A stretch of DNA of 57,380 nt, counting the filler, from Dugesia japonica (taxonomy: Eukaryota), in the NCBI GenBank assembly GCA_001938525.1. It is 5 parts of 5 records of this genome, joined end to end, with 100 filler letters (N's around TTAATTAATTAA, not from the genome) between each part and the next. Parts side by side here need not be neighbours in the genome. Positions count along the whole stretch, not along the records: positions 28,502 to 36,814 come from MQRL01648146.1; 4 more parts are not named here. One strand, written 5' to 3'. Within the stretch, counting starts at the first letter, position 1; each line of letters starts with the position of its first letter. Positions 18,537 to 57,380 of the stretch are shown here, piece after piece. Made by a program: the position numbers and the translations under genes. The notes under the pieces are model-generated. The model searched no databases and was not told the origin of the DNA. It saw nothing but the letters and a program-made list of their open reading frames with translations.

Positions 18537-18636
18537 NNNNNNNNNNNNNNNNNNNNNNNNNNNNNNNNNNNNNNNNNNNNTTAATTAATTAANNNNNNNN
18601 NNNNNNNNNNNNNNNNNNNNNNNNNNNNNNNNNNNN
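18537..18636. other. Artificial contig spacer N-TTAATTAATTAA-N (also 28402-28501, 36815-36914, 46642-46741)
   Basis: The same 12-mer, with stops in all six frames, is centred in ~100-nt N blocks four times. Confidence 0.9.
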
Positions 18637-23124: not shown

Positions 23125-25359
23125 AGAACTAATTCCAGTTCACTAAAATTATACTATAATAAAAGTGTCAATTACACACCAATTGCATTCTTAAATATGG
23201 GGAATATAAGTGATGCAATGATTCAAGAAATATATTATATAATTCACAATGTTTATACGGGTCACATCAATCACAACATACATATGGATCAAATCAATAT
23301 TTAATTATCAGAAATATACCTTACTCATATCTACCCCAACCAATATGGCGTAAGCCAGTCGATATTTCGAAAAATTTCAGTACCATCAGTTTATCTAATT
23401 TTATAGCTCCTATTGTGTAGTTTATCAATTATAGCGTAACGACTATCGTATCGTTTTTTTTGTTAATTTCTAACATCAATTTTACTCCAAATTTTTTCAC
23501 CAATTTTTATACTCCTTTCTATATTATTATTCATTAGATTCGATATATTCTCATTGGTCAGAAATTTATTTGAGCTTTCAAATTTATCTATACTTAGATG
23601 TTTTTCTAAAAATTATTTCTGCACGACTTATTTTAGTACTTTTATAAATTTTCGAATTCATAGTAAATTTTATTTGAGGTAAACATTCTTCCAAATTTCT
23701 GAATAATTTATCTTCGATACAGCAATATATCCAGTCTCTAATCGTTCGAAATCGACGTTCTACTTGACCATTTGCTTGACGGTGGTATGGACTACAATAT
23801 TATATTTTAAAATTAAATTTCTTTGCCAAATCTTTGAAATTTGATGATAAAAACATATTCCATGGTCAACATGAATCGATCTCGGTGAACCAAACTTCAA
23901 TAACTAATATTCACTTCAAATCTTGATTAAAGTTTTATCATCTTAATTTTTTACGGCTTCTAGTAAAATATATTTGCTATACTGATCAATAATTACAAAT
24001 ATATACTTTTTTCCTGTTTTATCAATTTAAATGGTCCGCAAAAATCTATGTAAATAGATTCAAATGGTTCATTAGTAGCTAATCTTTAGCATTCCTCTTT
24101 CGTTTTCATTGAATAAACTTTTCCTTCATGAAATATTCTGCAATTCTTTAAATATTTCTTTACATATTCTTCACGTTTTTCCATATAATAATTTTGTTTC
24201 ATACAATCTAACACCTTTTAAAATCCAGTGTGGCATAATTTCTGTTGAATTTCTGTCACGATGTCATATTGTTTATCTTTAGGAACATATATTTCATTAT
24301 TTTTAAAAATAATTCCGTCTTGATATTCAAATTTTTTCTGTCTCTTTATTAGCAATCTTATTTATTATTTCATTAATTTCTTCATTATTTCTCTGCATTT
24401 CATATTTGATGATATTTTCATTTGCAATTAATAAACGAGTTTGGGCTTTTCTAGTTTTAGTATCAGTGTGTTCCATATTAAATTTTTTACACAACTGATT
24501 ATTCAATCTTGATAAAGCATCTGCGTTTGAATGTTTCTCTCCTTTTCTGTACTCCAACTTGATATTTAAACTACTGAGAAAATTTATCCAATTTTAAAAT
24601 TGAGCTGTAATTGGTTTAACATAAAAGTTATCGCATTATGGTCTGTTCGCAATAAAAACATTTTGCGTATAAATAATGCTTAAAGTGTTGAGTAAAGTGA
24701 AATACAGCACTAATACTGTCAAAACCTGCGTCCGTATCTAGAATAAATAAACAACTGAAATCAGGGAGACATAATATATGAGCATTTGACACTTTATCTT
24801 TCAGTTTCTCTAATGCTATTTCACATTTAGATGTCCAAATATTTTCTTTCGTACTTAATAAAGATTCCACTTTATCAGTATCAGTCAGTATTCTGTCAGT
24901 ATTAATTACATGACATAAAAGTTTTATTTCTGATACCAGAAATTTCCATTTATCAGGATTAATTTGTAAACCAGATTTAGATATCCTTGGAAATAGCTTG
25001 TTCAAAATCGAAATATGGTCATCAATTGTTTTTGAAAAAATTAAAATATCATCCAGACAGATCAAACTTTCTTTCTAATTCATGTCTCCTATAATAATCG
25101 TAATTTACTTTTGAAATATGGATGCCGCTGCAGCAATTTTAAGCGGCATTCTATTAAAATAATATTACTCATATTTTAAGGAAAATGCTGTTTTAATGTT
25201 TGATTCATCCTCCAATTCAACTTGGTAATGTGCATTTCCAAGGTCGATTGATGAAAAGTACTTAGCTACATTTAGTGAATCTACCATTTGGTTTACATTA
25301 GGAATATGGAATGCAGGTCTAACTGTAGTTTTATTTAACAACCAAAAATCCAAGCACAT
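23125..25359 (-). mobile_element. Gypsy/Ty3 LTR retrotransposon pol remnant (RT-RNase H-integrase) with probable 3' LTR remnant
   Basis: MCLDF..LNK, YFSSIDL..AHYQV, KTAF, LDDILIFS, FILDTDA, YRKGEKHSNADALSR, IDFCGP, FGSPRSIHVD, SPYH.QANGQVER, in Gypsy order with many stops and frameshifts. Confidence 0.93.
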
Positions 25360-28000: not shown

Positions 28001-30839
28001 ATATTCAAAAATAATTTAATCCAGGTTTTCATGATATTTGGTTGCTGATTTACTTGATAAGTTATTACATTCTTGGTTTTATTTTTGACTTTCATTCAAT
28101 TTTTCTTTGTTTTTATAAGATTTTCTACTTATTAATTGGTTTAGAAAATTATGTCATTTGATTATTTAAACGAATGCGCAATAAAAATATTTATAATTAT
28201 TCTTGCTAAGTTAATAATGGAAAATATACCATATTCACAAAAAAAGAATAAATGAAGAAGATAAACAAGAAGATAAAAAGAAGATAAAAAAGAAGATAAA
28301 AAGATAAAGAAGATAAACCTCAAATTAATGTAGTGTTCAACAATTACAAATTTTAAAAAAAAGAGATATTTTTGATAAAAAAAAAGTCTATATCAATATC
28401 TNNNNNNNNNNNNNNNNNNNNNNNNNNNNNNNNNNNNNNNNNNNNTTAATTAATTAANNNNNNNNNNNNNNNNNNNNNNNNNNNNNNNNNNNNNNNNNNN
28501 NCGATGAGCAACAATCTGCTAAGACAAATATGGAGATAAGAAACTGAAAAATACAATTTTTGGAAGAAAATATGGTAAAAGAGAAGAGAAGAAGAATAAA
28601 AACAATTACTGATGAATGATAAACAATCGGATTTCAATGGAGCCTATGTTATTCGCCAGTTTAAGGTAGAGCAGTGGGAAATGAAAAGTGTTTGTGTCTG
28701 ATCATATCTGAAATACGGTGGAGGAAGTCAAGAAATTCCAAAACTGTAAAGTTCAATTTGGAATCCATGCCGAACTCGAAGGAGATGAAAATGATCAAGA
28801 GAAGGAGATTAGGGAATGGTCGTGGTCATACAAAGCCATTAGATATTCAGAAGAGTTTTTAGAAAAAATAATTCAATTTTTAATTTTATTTTTGAATATA
28901 TATTAAGAAACATGGCCTTTTGATACAGACGATAAAGAAGAATGGGCAGTAAAAATACTGATGTAATAGAAAATAAATAAAATATAATAAAATAAAATAT
29001 ATTAGTAAAATTTACTTATGTATAAATATAGTTTGGGACTCGAGAGTGCCACAGAAATGCAATATTTTGATGGTGATTTGTGGCCTGATTAGACTGAAAC
29101 TTATAAAATAGAAAAACGCGATTGTAGGAAAGTTTTCAATTTAGAAAAAGAATTAGCAAAAATAATTATTAGCTTGTGGTTATTCTTAAGATAAATGAAA
29201 TGCCAATCAAGGACAAAGGCAATAACAATTTATAAAATATATTAACATACTTAACATATTAAAACGGTTCTGTTGAGTCTCTTAAGACTCATTCATTTTT
29301 AGTGTATTGTGAAGTGTACTTACATATTATGAGCGCATAATTTTATACTTAATCTTCCTAAAAACTCATAAACTAACAAAAATATTATGAACAACAATTA
29401 AACATATTTATTATTTGGAACATTTCAACGAAATAAACATTATCAACAATAAACACAGATTAACAATCCATCAGTTAGAATATTTTCTAAAACCACTCTT
29501 GCTCTTACCACTCTACTATTGACTCAGTTAGAAAAACCACAGATAACAAAATATACACGAAGACTCAACCGTTCTTAAGTGATGGTGAAAAGAGTATTTG
29601 CATAGTAAGAGCGTATGATTAAGTAATTAATCTATGTTCAAATCAATAATTAATTTTAATTACACTAAAGAAAGAATCAAATGGAAAACAGATTTACAAG
29701 AAATTTGGATTAATGAACAGTTAATTATTAACTATTTTTTGAGATATTTATCCAAGATAAACTTTGGTCTTTAATTTTTCACTAACGATTGATGCGGTTA
29801 TTAATTTATGGCTCGGGACTTCCTTGTATAACTTGTGCTAGATAATTTAGAATAAATATGAAAATTACCTGAAAGACATAAAAGATCTACAGGAAAAGCG
29901 GTGCATTGCTTATTATTCATTATATCTAGAATTTGTTAATTGTTCCCCTGTTTCACATTGAGCACAGCGGATTAAGATATGATATTTTGGAAAAATTTAA
30001 AAAGAAATCATAAAGCAAGAATAGGAAGAAATATCGATGTTTAATTTGAAATTGATTTGAAATCTCTTCTTGATATGCTTCCACGATCATTATATAAAGT
30101 TTTAATTTGAAACTTATAAATGTTGGGGTAAAATTCTTGAATTTCATTTGCGCTAAAATTATTATAGGTCATTTCCTGAATTTTAGAAGTTTTAAATTTT
30201 TTAAAACCTTTGTAAATATAATTTTTTTAATTTTAGGATAATCACTTTTAATATTAACATTTTCATCGTTAAAATAATCAAACCATTGTTTTAAAATGGC
30301 GAATAACGACTTTTATTTGAATTTTCTTGAAAATATCGAAAATGTCTATTTAGGGACAAATTAGAATAGTCAAGGGAATGATTAGTAGAATTTTGGCTAC
30401 TAATTTGCAAATCTGAAGGACAGACATTATTTGAAAAATTTATATTTTCATTATTGGTATTATTTTTTGAAGCAATATTATTGTTAATATCTGACTTATT
30501 ATCAAAAATTACGCAGCTAATTTTGCCATTAGTAGTCAATTTTACTTTTTCTACATGGTTTTACAGGATCAGCAGAATTATTAATGATATAAATAGTAGA
30601 ATTCTTACTTTTTTGATTATAAATGTAGCAGCTTTGCGACGATTATTAACATCACTAGGAGCTTTGACAGTGAAATTATGGAGAATCTTATGATACTGGT
30701 ATTATTGCGCCCATTGATGACAAAATTTGGTAAAGTTCCATTACTTATTTCTAGCTATTACCAAGCGCTATTGTATGCAATTAAGTAAATTTATAAAAAC
30801 GTTGTTGTTCTCCTCATTGTTCCACTCAAACGAATTCTT

Positions 30840-31890
30840 ATTTTGACACTGATGAGGAATTCATAAGCTATAACTACGATACAAGAGAAGCTACAAAACT
30901 TCACAGAAACTATACATTTAGCATGTCTTTAAATAAATTCAAATCAATGGAAGAATATTATTTGAATCTATAAAAAACAATGTCAAATATAGTTTATATA
31001 AATATGAGTCATATGTTTAGATTTAACCATTGACTTATATTTTTAGTGTCTGGCAGTGGATATAAACATGTCCAGGCATATACTGAATTCAAAAATGCTA
31101 TTAATTTCCACAGATCTCAAGATTTATTTCACGTTTCATAAGTGAAAAGCGTTCCAAAAGAAAATAAACGATTGGGGATACTGTATTGTACGAAACTACA
31201 AACAAGAAAATCATGAACAATGCCTTAATCGTATGGAATTCCATCAATTGATTGTTTTGATAATGAAACTGGTATAATAACTGTAAGTAAAAAATCTAAA
31301 AAAGTAAAAATGTATGGCATAATGCGTTTATTTTGTCTTAAAAAAACAGCTATCGAAATGATAAAAAATAATTTCCATGAAGTGTATTTGTGTAAAAATA
31401 GTGTTGAAAATAAAATCTCGAAAGTGAATATGGACATGCCACTTCTTATTTTCAAACGTTTAAATTAGATTTTATAAATGTATGGGATTTCAAGTCCCAC
31501 ATACTTATGGGTCGTAGTAATTTGGGCAAAACTAAATTTGCACTTGCTCATTTAAATAAACAGGTACATGTAAAAAAATGCAGAATTTTATTGATCCAAA
31601 ATATGTGATGGTATGGTACACTAAATACAAATGAGTTATTGGGTATATTAGACGTGACTAGAGAAAATAATGTAAATATAAAGTATACCACAGGTTATAT
31701 TCCCAATTTTCTTTCACAAAAAATTTGCTTAAATAAAAGCACGCAACCGTATCTAAAGAAATGTTCTAATGAAATTAACGAAGCAATCACTAGATGTATT
31801 GTCATAAATAATTTTAATGAAACTATATACGATAAATGCATTGATATTTCTACATTACAGATGTATGAGAAGGGGGAAAACGGGCCTTGA
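30840..31890 (+). pseudogene. rep: Endogenous CRESS-DNA-virus-like Rep (HUH endonuclease plus SF3 helicase), disrupted
   Basis: In one frame: RNYTF (motif I-like, 30905), SGYKHVQAYTEF (motif II, 31067), YCTK..TR (motif III, 31184). After a frameshift: GRSNLGKTKFALAH (Walker A, 31510), ILD...NIKY...IP...ICLN and EAITR. Confidence 0.8.
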
Positions 31891-33739
31891 CCAGGTTTAC
31901 TAAAAGGAACGAGTTTTACTGTTGTGAAGCAGACTCGGAAGAACGCGACATCTGTGGAACAATGTTCAGACATCGTTTTGTGAAAACTTGTTATTGTGAT
32001 ATTAAATGTCAATTAACTACTCTCCACGTGTTATATGTTTATACGTTACTATTGTGACTCGTGAATATAATCTGTTTAATATAAGTAAATTGCTTAGAAA
32101 AAAAGCTATGCAAAATAAAATGCTTAACGCAATGAACAAGTTTTCAAGCAAAAATGTTTTGTCATTTTATGTTTTATTAAGTATAATAAATTTTATACCT
32201 GAAATGCTTTCATGATTTTTGAATGTTTACATATTATTGGTTATTTAATTTTATTATTTATTTTAAATTTTTCAGTTAATTGTTATCGATGGTATATTAA
32301 TTATAACTTAGTTAATGTAATGAATTCATAAAACAATACGTGTGTAAATTATACTAAACTGTAATATTATGACCGATATTATTAATGTCCTTACAGACTT
32401 TTGTTATAAATTTGTTATCAACGCTTGTTTCTCTTATAATAATGGCCATTATTAACAGGTGTATGATGCTTACGAAGAACTAAATATGGCTGACAATAAC
32501 GAACTTCCTGAAATTGATGAAAATTTATTGGCGATGTATCTGATCCTTATCTGGAGAGCTGGAAAAACAAACGGAATCATATTTGTTGGGCTCCAGGCAC
32601 AGCAAATCTTTTTTGCACATCCTCGCAAGCGATTTTAAGAGAATTGGAAAGCAGCTAATCTCATTTTTATTTACTTCATTCTTTTTCAATTAGTTACCTT
32701 ATTCGTTAAATGACGTATATATTCATGGTCTCATATAGACATTATCACAAAGTCCAATGAAACAAAATTCTAAAGTATCATTGGTAAAACCTTTATAACA
32801 ACACTAATAACAGAAATAAGATCAGCACACAATTTCTTTGCTTAATTAGCAGTAATGTTATGATATTCAATTTAATTCAAGAATATTGTTCTCTTAAATA
32901 TTTAAATTGTTTAGGAAAACAAATCATTAAGATTTTAGCACAAATAATAAATTTTTCAGATTTTTAAAAGAAATTAAGAAAGAATTTTTCCGCAACCTAA
33001 AATACTAAGTTCATTGCAATATTTATACTGTCGGTTTTAAATAGATCCTATTCGAAGAGAAATTTCGTGGAATTATTGGTTTGACCTTGTGAAAAAATTT
33101 TCCAGAAATAAATAGCATTACTTTCTCAAATATAACCCATTTTACATCACTCGTAATGGTACCGAATAGCAATTATTCAGAAAATGTTTATTTTTGATAA
33201 TTTTATGAATTTTTTTAATTAAATAATAATATAAATAATTTCGATATTTTCATATAATAATAATTTAAATATGGAATATTAAAGTCATTTGTGTCTCATT
33301 TAGAAGATTTTCATTATATAGTAAAACCTATTCTTGCTCTTATCGCTTCAAATCGTTCCAAATTTTCATCATGAGTGAATTGGTTCCGACAAAACATAGC
33401 TACAAGTTTCAAATGCTAGAATTTCAACGCCATACAAAATTTGTCGGATTAGTGGTTGAATATCAGCTTTACTATATTCAAATGTTCATTTATAAAATCA
33501 AAAATAACTCATAATAATCGGAACTAATGAATAACAGCATAGTTATTGCTACAAATGATTGATTGTTTCTTTTATAATTACCCAATTAAATTACAACATA
33601 TAAAAACTTCCATTGATTTTTCCTAAAATGTTTGTTGTCTTTATTTACTAATCTACATTTATATGTAAATTTCCTTGAGGTTAAAATAAGTCAATATTGT
33701 TCAAAAATTTGATATAACTTGTACAAGCAGCTTGTGATG

Positions 33740-33935
33740 TGTGGAGCTATTTTTCACGTTTCTTTCTTTTTCAACACATTACTGCAATTAAGCGCTTAGT
33801 AGAAACTCAGTGGAGTTCGAAAAAGACGCTTAAAAAAAGAGATGTGTTATAAAAATAATTACACGAAAATTATACTTGCTTCAGAACAATTAACTGGTAA
33901 AGAAAATATAGCTACAAGATCAGATGCTGGAATAC
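33740..33935 (+). pseudogene. hAT (ZMYM1-like) transposase fragment
   Basis: IKRLVETQWSSKKD...IILASEQLT...TRSDA resembles LK.LS.TRWSSR.DA. Confidence 0.55.
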
Positions 33936-34264
33936 CAACTATTAAGATTGTAACAAAAATAATATATTTTTTTCAGATTTTCAAGAATGTTTTAGAATAT
34001 ACAAATTTCTCTGAATCGTCAATGTTGTCAATTGTTTCATTTATAGTTGTCATTTTCCAATTAAAGTCTTAATTTTTTATTGCTCACCCCTTTCTTTCGA
34101 TAAATCATTTTACTTTCAACTTTCCGCTTTATACTACTAAATTCATTAATTAAGTTATTTTATATTTGTTTTTATGTATTGCTCACTATTCTGAAGACTT
34201 GGAATTATGAATACTCAAATGCAATTTTATCTACAATTAACATATACACAATTACTACCCTTAC

Positions 34265-34550
34265 AATGTCTGACAATAACGGAATAATATAAGTGATGGA
34301 GTGCCGAAAAAGAAATTAAAACATTTAAAAACAAAATTCAATGACAAATGACTAACAAATATTAGGTATCAAAGTTGGTTACAGAAACAAATAACTTCAC
34401 GGCTTAGTGCAAGATGCGTGGCATGATTTTTATTATTAATATCTAATATTTATTTATTAAAAGGGAAAAATCCGTTAAACAACATGGTACAGCAATTAAA
34501 TGTTTGCATTGCTAAACTAGCTGCCGTATACCACACAATTGGAAAACCTT
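34265..34550 (+). pseudogene. hAT transposase N-terminal zinc-finger region fragment
   Basis: KFNDK*L...YQSWLQ...A*CKM and AKLAA. Confidence 0.45.
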
Positions 34551-34624
34551 CGAAATGAATTATAATTATGATAATTAAAATAATAATAATTATGATAATA
34601 AAATTAATAATAATAAAGATGATC

Positions 34625-34690
<66 letters not shown>

Positions 34691-35714: not shown

Positions 35715-35957
35715 TTATTGAATTTTAATTGGATAATTTGTTTTATTCATTGAATTTTAATTGAATAATTTATTTATTTTATTGTTTTTTAATTGGATAA
35801 TTTATTTTATTGAATTTCAATTTGATAATTTAATTTATTTATTGAATTTTACTCGGATAATTTAGTTATTTTAATGACTTTTAATTGGATAATTTATTTT
35901 ATTGAATTTCAATAGGATATTTTATTTTATTGAATTTTAATTGGATAATTTATTTAA
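35715..35957. repeat. Minisatellite, ~30-35 nt unit
   Basis: Repeated tattgaattttaattggataattta(tttt). Confidence 0.8.
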
Positions 35958-55725: not shown

Positions 55726-57380
55726 CTTTTCCAATGGAAATACCCGAAGACACACATTAATGTGTATTACGTAACTGTTTCTCGTATTTTTTAAAAGTTT
55801 ACCGAATTATCGGGTTTTTAATGGACGAGTCAATTTATGTGTATTACGTAACTTTTGCTCGTATTTTTACATAGTTTACCGAATTATTTGACTAAATTAC
55901 CGAATTATTCGAATAATTAACCGAATTATCTGAATAGTTTATCGAATTAATTGAATAATTAACCGAATTATTTGAATAGTTTACCAAATTATTTGACTAG
56001 TTTACCGAATTATTTGAATAGTTTACCGAATTAATTAGAAAGTTTACCAAATTATTTGACTAGTTTACCGAATTATTCGAATAGTTTACCAAATTATTTG
56101 AATACTTTACCGAATTATTCAAATTTTTAAATTTTGGGACGAATTGTTCAGGAAATTCCTCGAGAAAGTTGATTTTTAGGTGTCTTGGTTGAATACTTCC
56201 ACAGGATTGGTCAGTTTGGGTAAACTTGGTCAGTTTTAGATAATTTTTGAACGATTTGGTTATGAATTTACTCGGTGAGGTCAAATAAGGTATTATTGGA
56301 TTAAAGAAAACAATCTTCTTCATCAATTTCAAAAAGGTGGATCTGAACATAAAGGATGTGTAGAACATAACTCAGTTTTGACTGCCGCTTTAGAATATTC
56401 AAAATTCAACAAATCGTGCCCAATTNNNNNNNNNNNNNNNNNNNNNNNNNNNNNNNNNNNNNNNNNNNNNNNNNNACTTTTCCAATGTAAATACCCAAAG
56501 ACACACATTAGTGTGTATTACGTAGCTGTTTCTCGTATTTTTTGAAAAGTTCACCGAATTATCGGGTTTTTAATGGACGAGTACATTTGTGTGTATTACA
56601 TAACTTTCACTCGTATTTTTGAATAGTTTGCCGAATTATTTGAATAGTTTACCGAATTATTTGAATAGTTTACCAAATTATTTGACTAGTTTACCGAATT
56701 ATTCGATTACTTTACCGAATTATTCAAATTTTTAAATTTTGGGACGAATTGTTAAGGAAATTCCTCGAGAAAGTTTATTTTTAGGTGTCTTGGTTGAATA
56801 CTACCACAGGATTGGTCAGTTTGGGTAAACTTGGTCAGTTTTAGGTAATTTTTGAACGATTTGGTTAGGAATTTACTCGGTGAGGTCAAATAAGGTAGAT
56901 TTTTGATTGGTTCAGGTGAATTTGGTCACTTATTTCCTCGGTTTTGGTCAGTTTGGGTAATTTTTAGATGTTTTGGTCAAATTTTTCCTCAGGATTGGAA
57001 AAATTTGGGTGATTTAGGTAAAATTGGTTGAAATTTTCCTCGATGAGGTCAAATAAGGTTGATATTTGGATGGTTCAGGTGAATTTGGTTGACAAATGGT
57101 TCGGTGAGGTCGAATGAGGTCGAGTTTAAGTTGGTTCAGGTGAATTGGTTCAATATTTCCTCGGGATTGCTCGGTTTGGATAATTTTTGGTAGATTTGGT
57201 CAATTATTTACTCGGTTTAGGTAATAATGGTCATATTTGTCCTCGGGATTGTTCAGTTTAGGTAATTTTTAGGCCAAAAAGTAGAATTTGTTTAAATTAT
57301 CAAGTATTTTAAAATTACTTTAAACTTTTGTGGTAAATTGGTGAAATTAGGTCATTTTTGTTTAAATTTTCTGATTTTTA
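55726..57380. repeat. Duplicated element end with 21-nt tandem subterminal repeats
   Basis: 55726-56292 recurs at 56476-56897; unit tagtttaccgaattatttgaa; further degenerate ctcgg-containing repeats run to the window end. Confidence 0.8.
56291..56425 (+). pseudogene. Non-LTR retrotransposon RT fragment (R2/NeSL-like)
   Basis: WIKENNLLHQFQKGGSEHKGCVEHNSVLTAALE matches QKGF....GC.EH...L. Confidence 0.7.

What the first reader, a model, noticed from the sequence alone, without database searches (positions are those of the whole stretch)
30840..31890. Endogenous CRESS-DNA-virus-like Rep fossil largely missed by the ORF track
Seen: RCR motif I-like RNYTF, motif II HVQAY.EF and motif III YCTK are co-linear in one frame despite stops, followed by SF3 helicase Walker A GRSNLGKTKFALAH, a damaged Walker B (CDGMV in a shifted frame), a motif C region and AITR. 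Known: an HUH plus SF3 helicase architecture defines Cressdnaviricota Reps. Inference: germline integration of a ssDNA virus, giving host evidence for a CRESS lineage in this (probably flatworm) host. The nuclease looks circovirus-like while the helicase is of the GKT.FA.AH type, possibly a chimeric Rep.
Basis: partly seen in the sequence, partly recalled or inferred. Interest (0 to 1): 0.78.

Follow-up and report, generated by a model that had tools for sequence, protein, structure and literature searches.

The report
Fossil virus gene with probable intron
This is a broken copy of the replication gene of a small single-stranded DNA virus, lodged in an animal (probably planarian) chromosome, and it points to an unnamed virus lineage whose replication gene probably carries a short intron at an unusual place.

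Summary
The Rep fossil is real and longer than reported (30812-31983, +). It has no direct Pfam hit, but aligns at 48% identity over 382 residues to an unnamed open-frame Rep, P0003, and at 44-52% to two more (P0004, P0006). P0003 has a circo/nanovirus-type HUH nuclease, a geminivirus-type central domain and an SF3 helicase. The fossil is dead: 5 stops, 8 frame changes and no Walker B acidic pair. Motifs I-III share a frame only through compensating shifts, and Walker A lies in another frame. It sits on an ungapped contig in an AT-rich animal scaffold; runs from three studies of one organism hold at least half of it. New here: fossil and relatives share a 17-19-codon unconserved insert between motifs I and II that behaves like a spliceosomal intron (about 70%). 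A named structural neighbour is the Rep of the planarian element PEVE, and an integrated relative (PIVE) is already in print, so Rep fossils in planarians are not new. The host is probably a triclad but this is not shown. No origin hairpin, capsid or terminal repeats were found; junction reads and splicing were not tested.

The parts
30812..31983 (+). Degraded Rep gene (HUH nuclease, central domain, SF3 helicase, C-terminal tail to its stop codon)
   Evidence: Frameshift-aware alignment to P0003 residues 44-449: 184 of 382 identical, 5 stops, 8 frame changes; stop at 31981 matches the end of P0003
30905..30919 (+). RCR motif I-like strand (RNYTF)
   Evidence: Aligns to P0003 residues 72-76; motif label recalled
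30967..31005 (+). Strand preceding the insert, in a different frame from motifs I-III
   Evidence: Best match to P0003 residues 93-106 lies in frame mod 3 = 1
31006..31046 (+). Remnant of a probable spliceosomal intron; acceptor-like TTTTTAG at 31040-31046; no in-phase donor remains
   Evidence: Only TTTTTAG on the + strand in the 1.17-kb Rep span, background 0.47 per kb; homologous unconserved inserts in P0003 and P0006, absent from P0005, P0007, P0008, P0009 and L003; frame test. Start coordinate approximate; splicing inferred
31067..31081 (+). RCR motif II (HVQAY)
   Evidence: the relatives' Viral_Rep hits start just before it
31184..31195 (+). RCR motif III (YCTK), catalytic tyrosine position
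   Evidence: Tyr column invariant in 7 of 7 aligned Reps; catalytic role from established knowledge
31297..31470 (+). Central domain, broken by three frame changes
   Evidence: Homologous to P0003 210-280, Gemini_AL1_M E 6e-6, 26.7 bits against cut-off 24; breaks near 31305, 31339, 31413
31510..31533 (+). Walker A (GRSNLGKT)
31577..31627 (+). Destroyed Walker B region: three frame changes, 4 and 8 residues of the relatives absent, acidic pair missing
   Evidence: Same events against 3 of 3 relatives
31720..31797 (+). Motif C region (KICLN) and arginine-finger region (AITR, followed by C where relatives have a second R)
   Evidence: motif labels recalled
29754..29837 (-). Ribosomal protein S25-like fragment: nearest recognisable host-type sequence, same ungapped contig
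   Evidence: PF03297 E 1e-4, 22.9 bits, below cut-off 28.8; no N run between 28502 and 34690

Best explanation
A rep gene of a Rep-encoding ssDNA virus or virus-like element entered the germ line of an AT-rich animal, probably a triclad planarian, and has decayed into a pseudogene. The donor's Rep worked by the rolling-circle scheme: the HUH nuclease nicks the origin through the motif III tyrosine, the central domain oligomerises, and the SF3 ATPase unwinds (established for the family; not tested here). The donor belongs to an unnamed clade (P0003, P0004, P0006) that joins a circo/nanovirus-type nuclease to a geminivirus-type central domain and a GKT-FA-AH helicase, and it probably needed host splicing of a 51-55-nt intron between motifs I and II. 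The insertion came from DNA, since the intron remnant is kept. Shown: homology, domain make-up of the relatives, decay, animal neighbours. Inferred: germ-line integration (about 0.9), intron (about 0.7), planarian host (about 0.7), integration by Rep nicking or end-joining (untested).
For: Only 3 of 1.84 billion representatives match the fossil nuclease piece at E<=0.001, best 2.6e-35. P0003: Gemini_AL1_M and Viral_Rep; Atlas first hit 0.98, Cressdnaviricota Reps; its model matches FBNYV, duck circovirus and PCV2 nuclease domains (Z 8.5, 8.4, 8.0; rmsd 3.2-3.3; 93-96 aligned) and the PCV2 ATPase (Z 10.0, rmsd 3.1, 116 aligned). Fossil helicase piece groups with P0003/4/6 at 96/95. Decay. Host context: BTBD2-like and TDG-like exons with splice sites, retroelement and hAT remnants; 6 of 24 listed runs, from 3 studies of organism A, hold half or more of the words of 30300-32300. 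Intron. Planarian link: PEVE Rep is rank 9 of the 50 listed BFVD matches, E 3.1e-18, 24% identity; the host-like BTBD2 is a long branch outside the mollusc and nematode groups sampled.
Against: No direct Pfam or PDB-sequence hit for the fossil. Viral_Rep scores of P0003, P0004 and P0006 are below the curated cut-off. No origin hairpin (5 of 5 folds had z between -0.82 and 0.45), no capsid hit in 12 flank read-throughs. Junction-spanning reads were not seen, and one of the three studies may be the source of the assembly. The relatives' DNA, circularity and hosts are unknown, so their splice sites are inferred from back-translation only. Eight unclassified CRESS Reps rank above PEVE. No flatworm reference was in the BTBD2 tree, whose bootstrap had not settled. 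The nuclease tree has no starred branch.
Confidence: 0.85

Rival explanations
1. The fossil is a piece of a genome-resident virus-like transposon of the PIVE kind (or a Replitron-like element), and P0003/P0004/P0006 are younger chromosomal copies in related animals, not free viruses.
For: PIVE is a multi-copy integrated element of Schmidtea mediterranea related to PEVE (PMC3198968 section 8 and supplement part 13); PEVE Rep is a structural neighbour; no relative found in 3 scans of viral contigs with P0002, P0003 and A2; an intron suits a long nuclear residence (inference).
Against: No terminal inverted repeat: the 25 longest of 154 pairs in 28510-34530 are 70-88% AT-rich matches of 24-40 nt; no NS1-like or transposase hit in the flanks; one copy in the window; the relatives' contigs are 3.0-4.3 kb, virus-sized. 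Replitrons lack a helicase (recalled).
Confidence: 0.2
2. The insert between motifs I and II is a real protein loop in P0003 and independent frameshift damage in P0004, P0006 and the fossil; there is no intron.
For: P0003 reads through it without a stop; the fossil has no in-phase donor; 7 of 869 unrelated 16-mers reach the same frame-test score; donor- and acceptor-compatible spots occur 1-3 and 4-6 times per protein by back-translation.
Against: Insert sequence is unconserved between P0003 and P0006 while flanks are 50-60% identical; P0004 and P0006 are open for 330 and 345 residues and their homology begins within a few residues of the predicted acceptor; the unanchored best shifted-frame match of P0006 1-16 (10 of 15; 2 of 2000 shuffles) ends at P0003 residue 106, where the donor-compatible site lies in both; the fossil's only TTTTTAG is at the predicted acceptor; pLDDT 23-31 over residues 111-130.
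Confidence: 0.27
3. The stretch is a contaminant or misassembly from a co-sequenced virus.
For: Junction reads were not examined; the assembly is gapped (28 N runs).
Against: A live virus would not carry 5 stops and 8 frame changes in rep; the contig is ungapped across both flanks; 18 of 18 holding runs carry one species label, three studies hold half or more of the words; GC 24-36% per 200 nt, like the flanks.
Confidence: 0.04
4. It is a domesticated, spliced host gene whose stops and shifts all lie in introns.
For: One break does coincide with an intron-like insert.
Against: Stops at 31139, 31214, 31226 and 31888 and the Walker B deletion fall in sequence colinear with the coding part of 3 of 3 relatives; no other pyrimidine-run AG on the + strand in the span.
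Confidence: 0.02

Closest known systems
Unnamed Logan Reps P0003 (449 aa), P0004 (330 aa), P0006 (345 aa)
   Same: 44-52% identity to the fossil along nuclease, central domain, helicase and tail; same insert position; one clade in the helicase tree
   Different: Open frames; single unnamed contigs of 3164, 4342 and 3032 nt with no host or annotation
[quoted passage not shown]
   Same: Planarian Rep-encoding elements; Q910M2 matches the P0003 model at E 3.1e-18; they are listed beside Geminiviridae in the Rep tree of PMC3198968 (supplement part 13), in keeping with the geminivirus-type central domain
   Different: Only 24% identity; no terminal repeats or NS1-like partner found here; sequence could not be fetched, so a shared clade and a shared intron are untested; the PEVE paper itself was not held
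Unclassified CRESS DNA viruses and cruciviruses with the GKT-FA-AH helicase (Periparus ater CRESS-DNA virus, giant panda associated circular DNA virus; P0008, P0009, L001, L003)
   Same: Best structural matches, 21-28% identity; same helicase type, 62-93 bits to the P0003 helicase against 11-15 bits for two RNA_helicase-type Reps
   Different: No insert between motifs I and II in P0007, P0008, P0009, L003; L001 has a Gemini_AL1 nuclease and a Gemini_coat-like capsid
Circoviridae / Nanoviridae Reps
   Same: Nuclease fold and HxQ-type motif II
   Different: No PF00910 hit in 3 of 3 relatives; central domain is Gemini_AL1_M; no NAGTATTAC hairpin found
Intron-bearing Reps (mastrevirus/genomovirus clade, porcine circoviruses, some cycloviruses and cruciviruses)
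   Same: Rep needs splicing; cyclovirus CN9E has a putative 56-nt GT-AG intron within the nuclease (PMC8622408, passages)
   Different: CN9E's downstream frame lacks motifs I and II, whereas here motif II is downstream of the intron; gemini/genomovirus and PCV introns are separate gains at other sites (10.1101/687855, passages; exact sites recalled)

Membership tests
Cressdnaviricota-type Rep | N-terminal HUH nuclease with motifs I-III | tested here: met
   Motifs present in the fossil; relative P0003 matches Viral_Rep at E 1e-4 (below cut-off) and solved nuclease domains at Z 8.0-8.5
Cressdnaviricota-type Rep | Fused C-terminal SF3 helicase (Walker A, B, motif C, arginine finger) | tested here: met
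   Complete in P0003/4/6, PCV2 ATPase Z 10.0; in the fossil Walker B is deleted
Cressdnaviricota (virus) | Circular ssDNA genome with nonanucleotide stem-loop origin | tested here: inconclusive
   One TAATATTAC at 32369 (-) in 28500-34600, hairpin z 0.08; decay could have erased an origin; relatives' DNA not available
Cressdnaviricota (virus) | Capsid gene | tested here: inconclusive
   No capsid family in 12 flank read-throughs; downstream 60-aa frame gave no Atlas hit above 0.77
Circoviridae | Viral_Rep nuclease with PF00910-type helicase | tested here: not met
   Nuclease type fits, but 0 of 3 relatives hit PF00910 and 3 of 3 hit Gemini_AL1_M; helicase has no similarity to two PF00910-type Reps
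Geminiviridae / Genomoviridae | Gemini_AL1 catalytic domain | tested here: not met
   0 of 3 relatives hit PF00799 while control L001 does at 2e-10
Geminiviridae / Genomoviridae | GRS motif | not tested
   No profile at hand
PEVE / PIVE elements | Rep in one clade with PEVE large-segment Rep | tested here: inconclusive
   Structural match only, rank 9, 24% identity; sequence not obtainable for a tree
PEVE / PIVE elements | Terminal inverted repeats and NS1-like partner gene | tested here: inconclusive
   None found in 28510-34550; element ends unknown and decayed
Endogenous viral element | Contiguous with host sequence and present in independent samples | tested here: met
   Ungapped contig 28502-34690 with an rpS25-like fragment; half or more of the words in 6 runs of 3 studies
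Endogenous viral element | Reads spanning the virus-host junctions at single-copy depth | not tested
   No read lay was obtained; left open

The most novel reading that the evidence does not exclude
The fossil and three unnamed contigs define a planarian-infecting Rep lineage, allied to PEVE/PIVE, that independently gained a short spliceosomal intron between RCR motifs I and II, so that Rep cannot nick unless the host splices it; the fossil dates that intron to before the integration and assigns a host to the contigs.
Probability: 0.45. Interest if true: 0.6.

Novelty: new variant of a known kind. Interest (0 to 1): 0.42.

Why it matters
Most CRESS viruses have no known host, and fossils are a main route to assign one (PMC7493932, PMC9615429: abstracts and term searches). 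This fossil ties an otherwise hostless three-member clade to one animal lineage. If the intron holds, it is a further independent intron gain in rep, at a site not described in the papers read here, and explains why gene callers truncate these Reps (P0004, P0006). If the host is a planarian, it adds a second Rep lineage to the little-studied PEVE/PIVE DNA elements of a main regeneration model. The fossil itself is dead and, as an endogenous Rep, ordinary.

Tried and rejected
No whole genome is held, so paralogues outside the window could not be sought. Pfam on 4 fossil read-throughs: 0 hits. Word search with the helicase piece among longer proteins: 0 of 153 candidates. PDB sequence searches: one chance hit at E 0.7 with P0001, none with A2. 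Viral contig scans with P0002, P0003, A2, P0009 and the L003 Rep: no relative; with P0008 and the L001 Rep only distant Reps; metagenome scan: 1 locus, 29%. tblastn of P0003 against plasmids and phages: none. Rfam on the window: 0. No read lay was obtained, so junctions, depth and expression stay open. Origin hairpins: 5 of 5 folds at chance level. Terminal repeats: none. Second fold from the 3-row alignment: mean pLDDT 34, uninformative; it drew the insert as strands. Nuclease tree: no starred branch. Earlier findings of the scan: nothing in 4 of 4 look-ups. Literature: term searches for flatworm, planarian, Schmidtea, Dugesia or intron in PMC9615429 and PMC7493932 gave 0 occurrences in the main text (supplements not searched and may list flatworm elements); searches listed no paper describing this clade. 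The PEVE paper and Repbase entries could not be read.

Full report
Observation. Motifs I, II and III lie in one frame (30905, 31067, 31184); Walker A, the motif C region and AITR lie in another (31510, 31720, 31783); CDGMV (31604) returns to the first. Read with X at stops, the pieces hit no Pfam family (0 of 4) and no solved structure by sequence. An exhaustive HMMER search with the nuclease piece found 3 proteins among 1.84 billion: P0003 (E 2.6e-35), P0004 (3.9e-28) and P0005 (1.7e-4, a plain Viral_Rep protein). A search with P0003 added P0006 (53%) and three distant Reps. P0003 matches both frames of the window (tblastn E 1.6e-75); a profile of P0003/4/6 scores 170 and 125 bits against at most 1.5 bits in 11 control sequences, with no second copy in the window.

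Extent and decay. A frameshift-aware alignment gives P0003 44-449 against 30812-31980, 184 of 382 identical, with 5 stops and 8 frame changes; P0004 and P0006 give 52% and 44%. The stops at 31139, 31214, 31226 and 31888, the shifts near 31413, 31577, 31600 and 31621 and the loss of 4 and 8 residues around Walker B recur against all three. The acidic pair of Walker B is gone, and the residue after AITR is C where the relatives have R. The gene cannot make an active Rep. Its natural stop survives at 31981.

What the donor was. P0003 hits Gemini_AL1_M above cut-off and Viral_Rep below it; P0004 and P0006 hit the same two families weakly. The Atlas ranks Cressdnaviricota Rep clusters first (0.98). 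A model of P0003 (mean pLDDT 54.6, helicase 70-90) matches the Vientovirus, AAV and PCV2 Reps in the PDB; domain-wise, the nuclease matches FBNYV, duck circovirus and PCV2 (Z 8.0-8.5) and the helicase the PCV2 ATPase (Z 10.0) (Z near 8 is not far above common levels, so these support but do not carry the assignment). The helicase is of the GKT-FA-AH type: it scores 62-93 bits against P0007, P0008, P0009, L001 and L003 but 11-15 bits against two RNA_helicase-type Reps, and the two types separate at 100/100 in an 11-row tree where the fossil piece groups with P0003/4/6 at 96/95. The same helicase is joined to a Viral_Rep nuclease in P0008 and P0009 and to a Gemini_AL1 nuclease in L001. No named family reference could be put into the trees, so family placement is open.

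Probable intron. Between the YQxE strand and motif II, P0003 and P0006 carry 17-19 extra residues that P0005, P0007, P0008, P0009 and L003 lack; the two inserts are unlike each other. P0004 starts inside the insert and P0006 has an unrelated N-terminus. Read in a shifted frame, P0006 residues 1-16 are compatible with P0003 92-106 at 10 of 15 positions; 2 of 2000 shuffles and 7 of 869 other 16-mers reach that. That match was found without anchoring and ends where a donor AG|GTAAR can be realised in both proteins; an acceptor TTYWYAG can be realised at the homologous position in P0003, P0004 and P0006 (such compatible spots occur 1-3 and 4-6 times per protein). In the window's DNA the only TTTTTAG of the Rep span lies at that acceptor (31040; background 0.47 per kb) and resembles the acceptor of the TDG-like host exon. 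The insert has pLDDT 23-31. The fossil is shorter than P0003 here and has no in-phase donor. The lengths implied are 51 nt (P0003, open) and 55 nt (P0006, frame-changing). This is inference: the relatives' DNA and any RNA reads were not seen. Retention of the remnant means the insertion came from DNA, not from a spliced transcript.

Host and integration. The window is 24% GC with 28 N runs. Rep lies on an ungapped stretch (28502-34690) with an rpS25-like fragment 1 kb upstream (below cut-off). Elsewhere are BTBD2-like exons, a TDG-like exon, and retroelement and hAT remnants. The BTBD2 exon is 72-77% identical to mollusc, arthropod and annelid proteins and 65-72% to nematode ones; the only near match (99% in this exon, 78% in the other) is an unnamed record, P0010, from a related species. 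P0010 is a long branch outside the mollusc and nematode groups; no flatworm was in that tree. Of 24 listed runs, 18 hold the stretch or a part, all labelled organism A; 6 runs from 3 studies hold half or more (one may be the assembly's source). Among the 50 listed BFVD matches, rank 9 is the Rep of the planarian element PEVE (24% identity). An AT-rich, repeat-rich animal absent from the named NCBI hits, plus the PEVE link, makes a triclad likely (about 0.7); it is not shown.

Surroundings. No capsid, NS1 or transposase hit in 12 flank read-throughs, no origin hairpin, no terminal repeats. The ends of the insertion are unknown.

Comparison with print. Rep fossils are widespread in invertebrates, including a tapeworm (PMC6186406 section 17); a Cap fossil is reported in Dicrocoelium (PMC10269781, passages). 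PEVE and the integrated PIVE of Schmidtea mediterranea are known, with their Reps listed beside Geminiviridae (PMC3198968 section 8 and supplement part 13). Rep introns are known from the gemini/genomovirus clade and porcine circoviruses (10.1101/687855, passages), cruciviruses (PMC7468197, passages) and cycloviruses, one with a putative 56-nt intron downstream of motif II (PMC8622408, passages). Nine searches listed nothing on this clade or on an intron between motifs I and II; subscription journals, Repbase and the PEVE paper were not readable.

Verdict. It works like, and by its two defining domains is, a Cressdnaviricota-type Rep; it fails the domain tests for Circoviridae and Geminiviridae/Genomoviridae and cannot be assigned to a family. 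The fossil is an ordinary dead endogenous element; the lineage it reveals, with a probable new intron site and a probable planarian host, is a new variant of a known kind. Interest 0.42.

Noticed in passing
window 39417-39734 and 40927-41178 (+): Two exons of a BTBD1/2-like host gene with GT donors; used to place the host.
   Followed up: yes
window 4033-4240 (-): Exon of a thymine-DNA-glycosylase-like (UDG superfamily) gene with canonical splice sites.
   Followed up: partly
window 23587-25359 (-): Decayed LTR retrotransposon: RT, RNase H-like and integrase fragments.
   Followed up: partly
window 42755-43009 (-): hAT transposase C-terminal remnant, E 3e-4.
   Followed up: no
window 29754-29837 (-): Ribosomal protein S25-like fragment, probably a pseudogene piece.
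   Followed up: partly
window 32453-32720 (+): GC-raised (34%), exon-like patch after an AG, downstream of Rep; no Pfam hit and no Atlas hit above 0.77. Could be a second viral gene or host debris.
   Followed up: partly
window 32006-32212 (+): A 69-codon ATG frame begins 22 nt after the Rep stop; no Pfam hit.
   Followed up: partly
window 28402-28501, 36815-36914, 18537-18636, 46642-46741: Paired 44-nt N runs 12 nt apart; in the two read (28402, 36815) the spacer is TTAATTAATTAA, an assembly linker with stops in all frames, not biology.
   Followed up: no
window 35715-35963 and 55871-56119: Tandem arrays with units of about 28-32 nt and 21 nt.
   Followed up: no
L001 (119-985, 1981-3570): Viral contig with a Gemini_AL1 nuclease joined to the same helicase type and a Gemini_coat-like capsid.
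   Followed up: partly
L002 (976-2208, 2846-4147): Viral contig with two different Viral_Rep genes in tandem.
   Followed up: no
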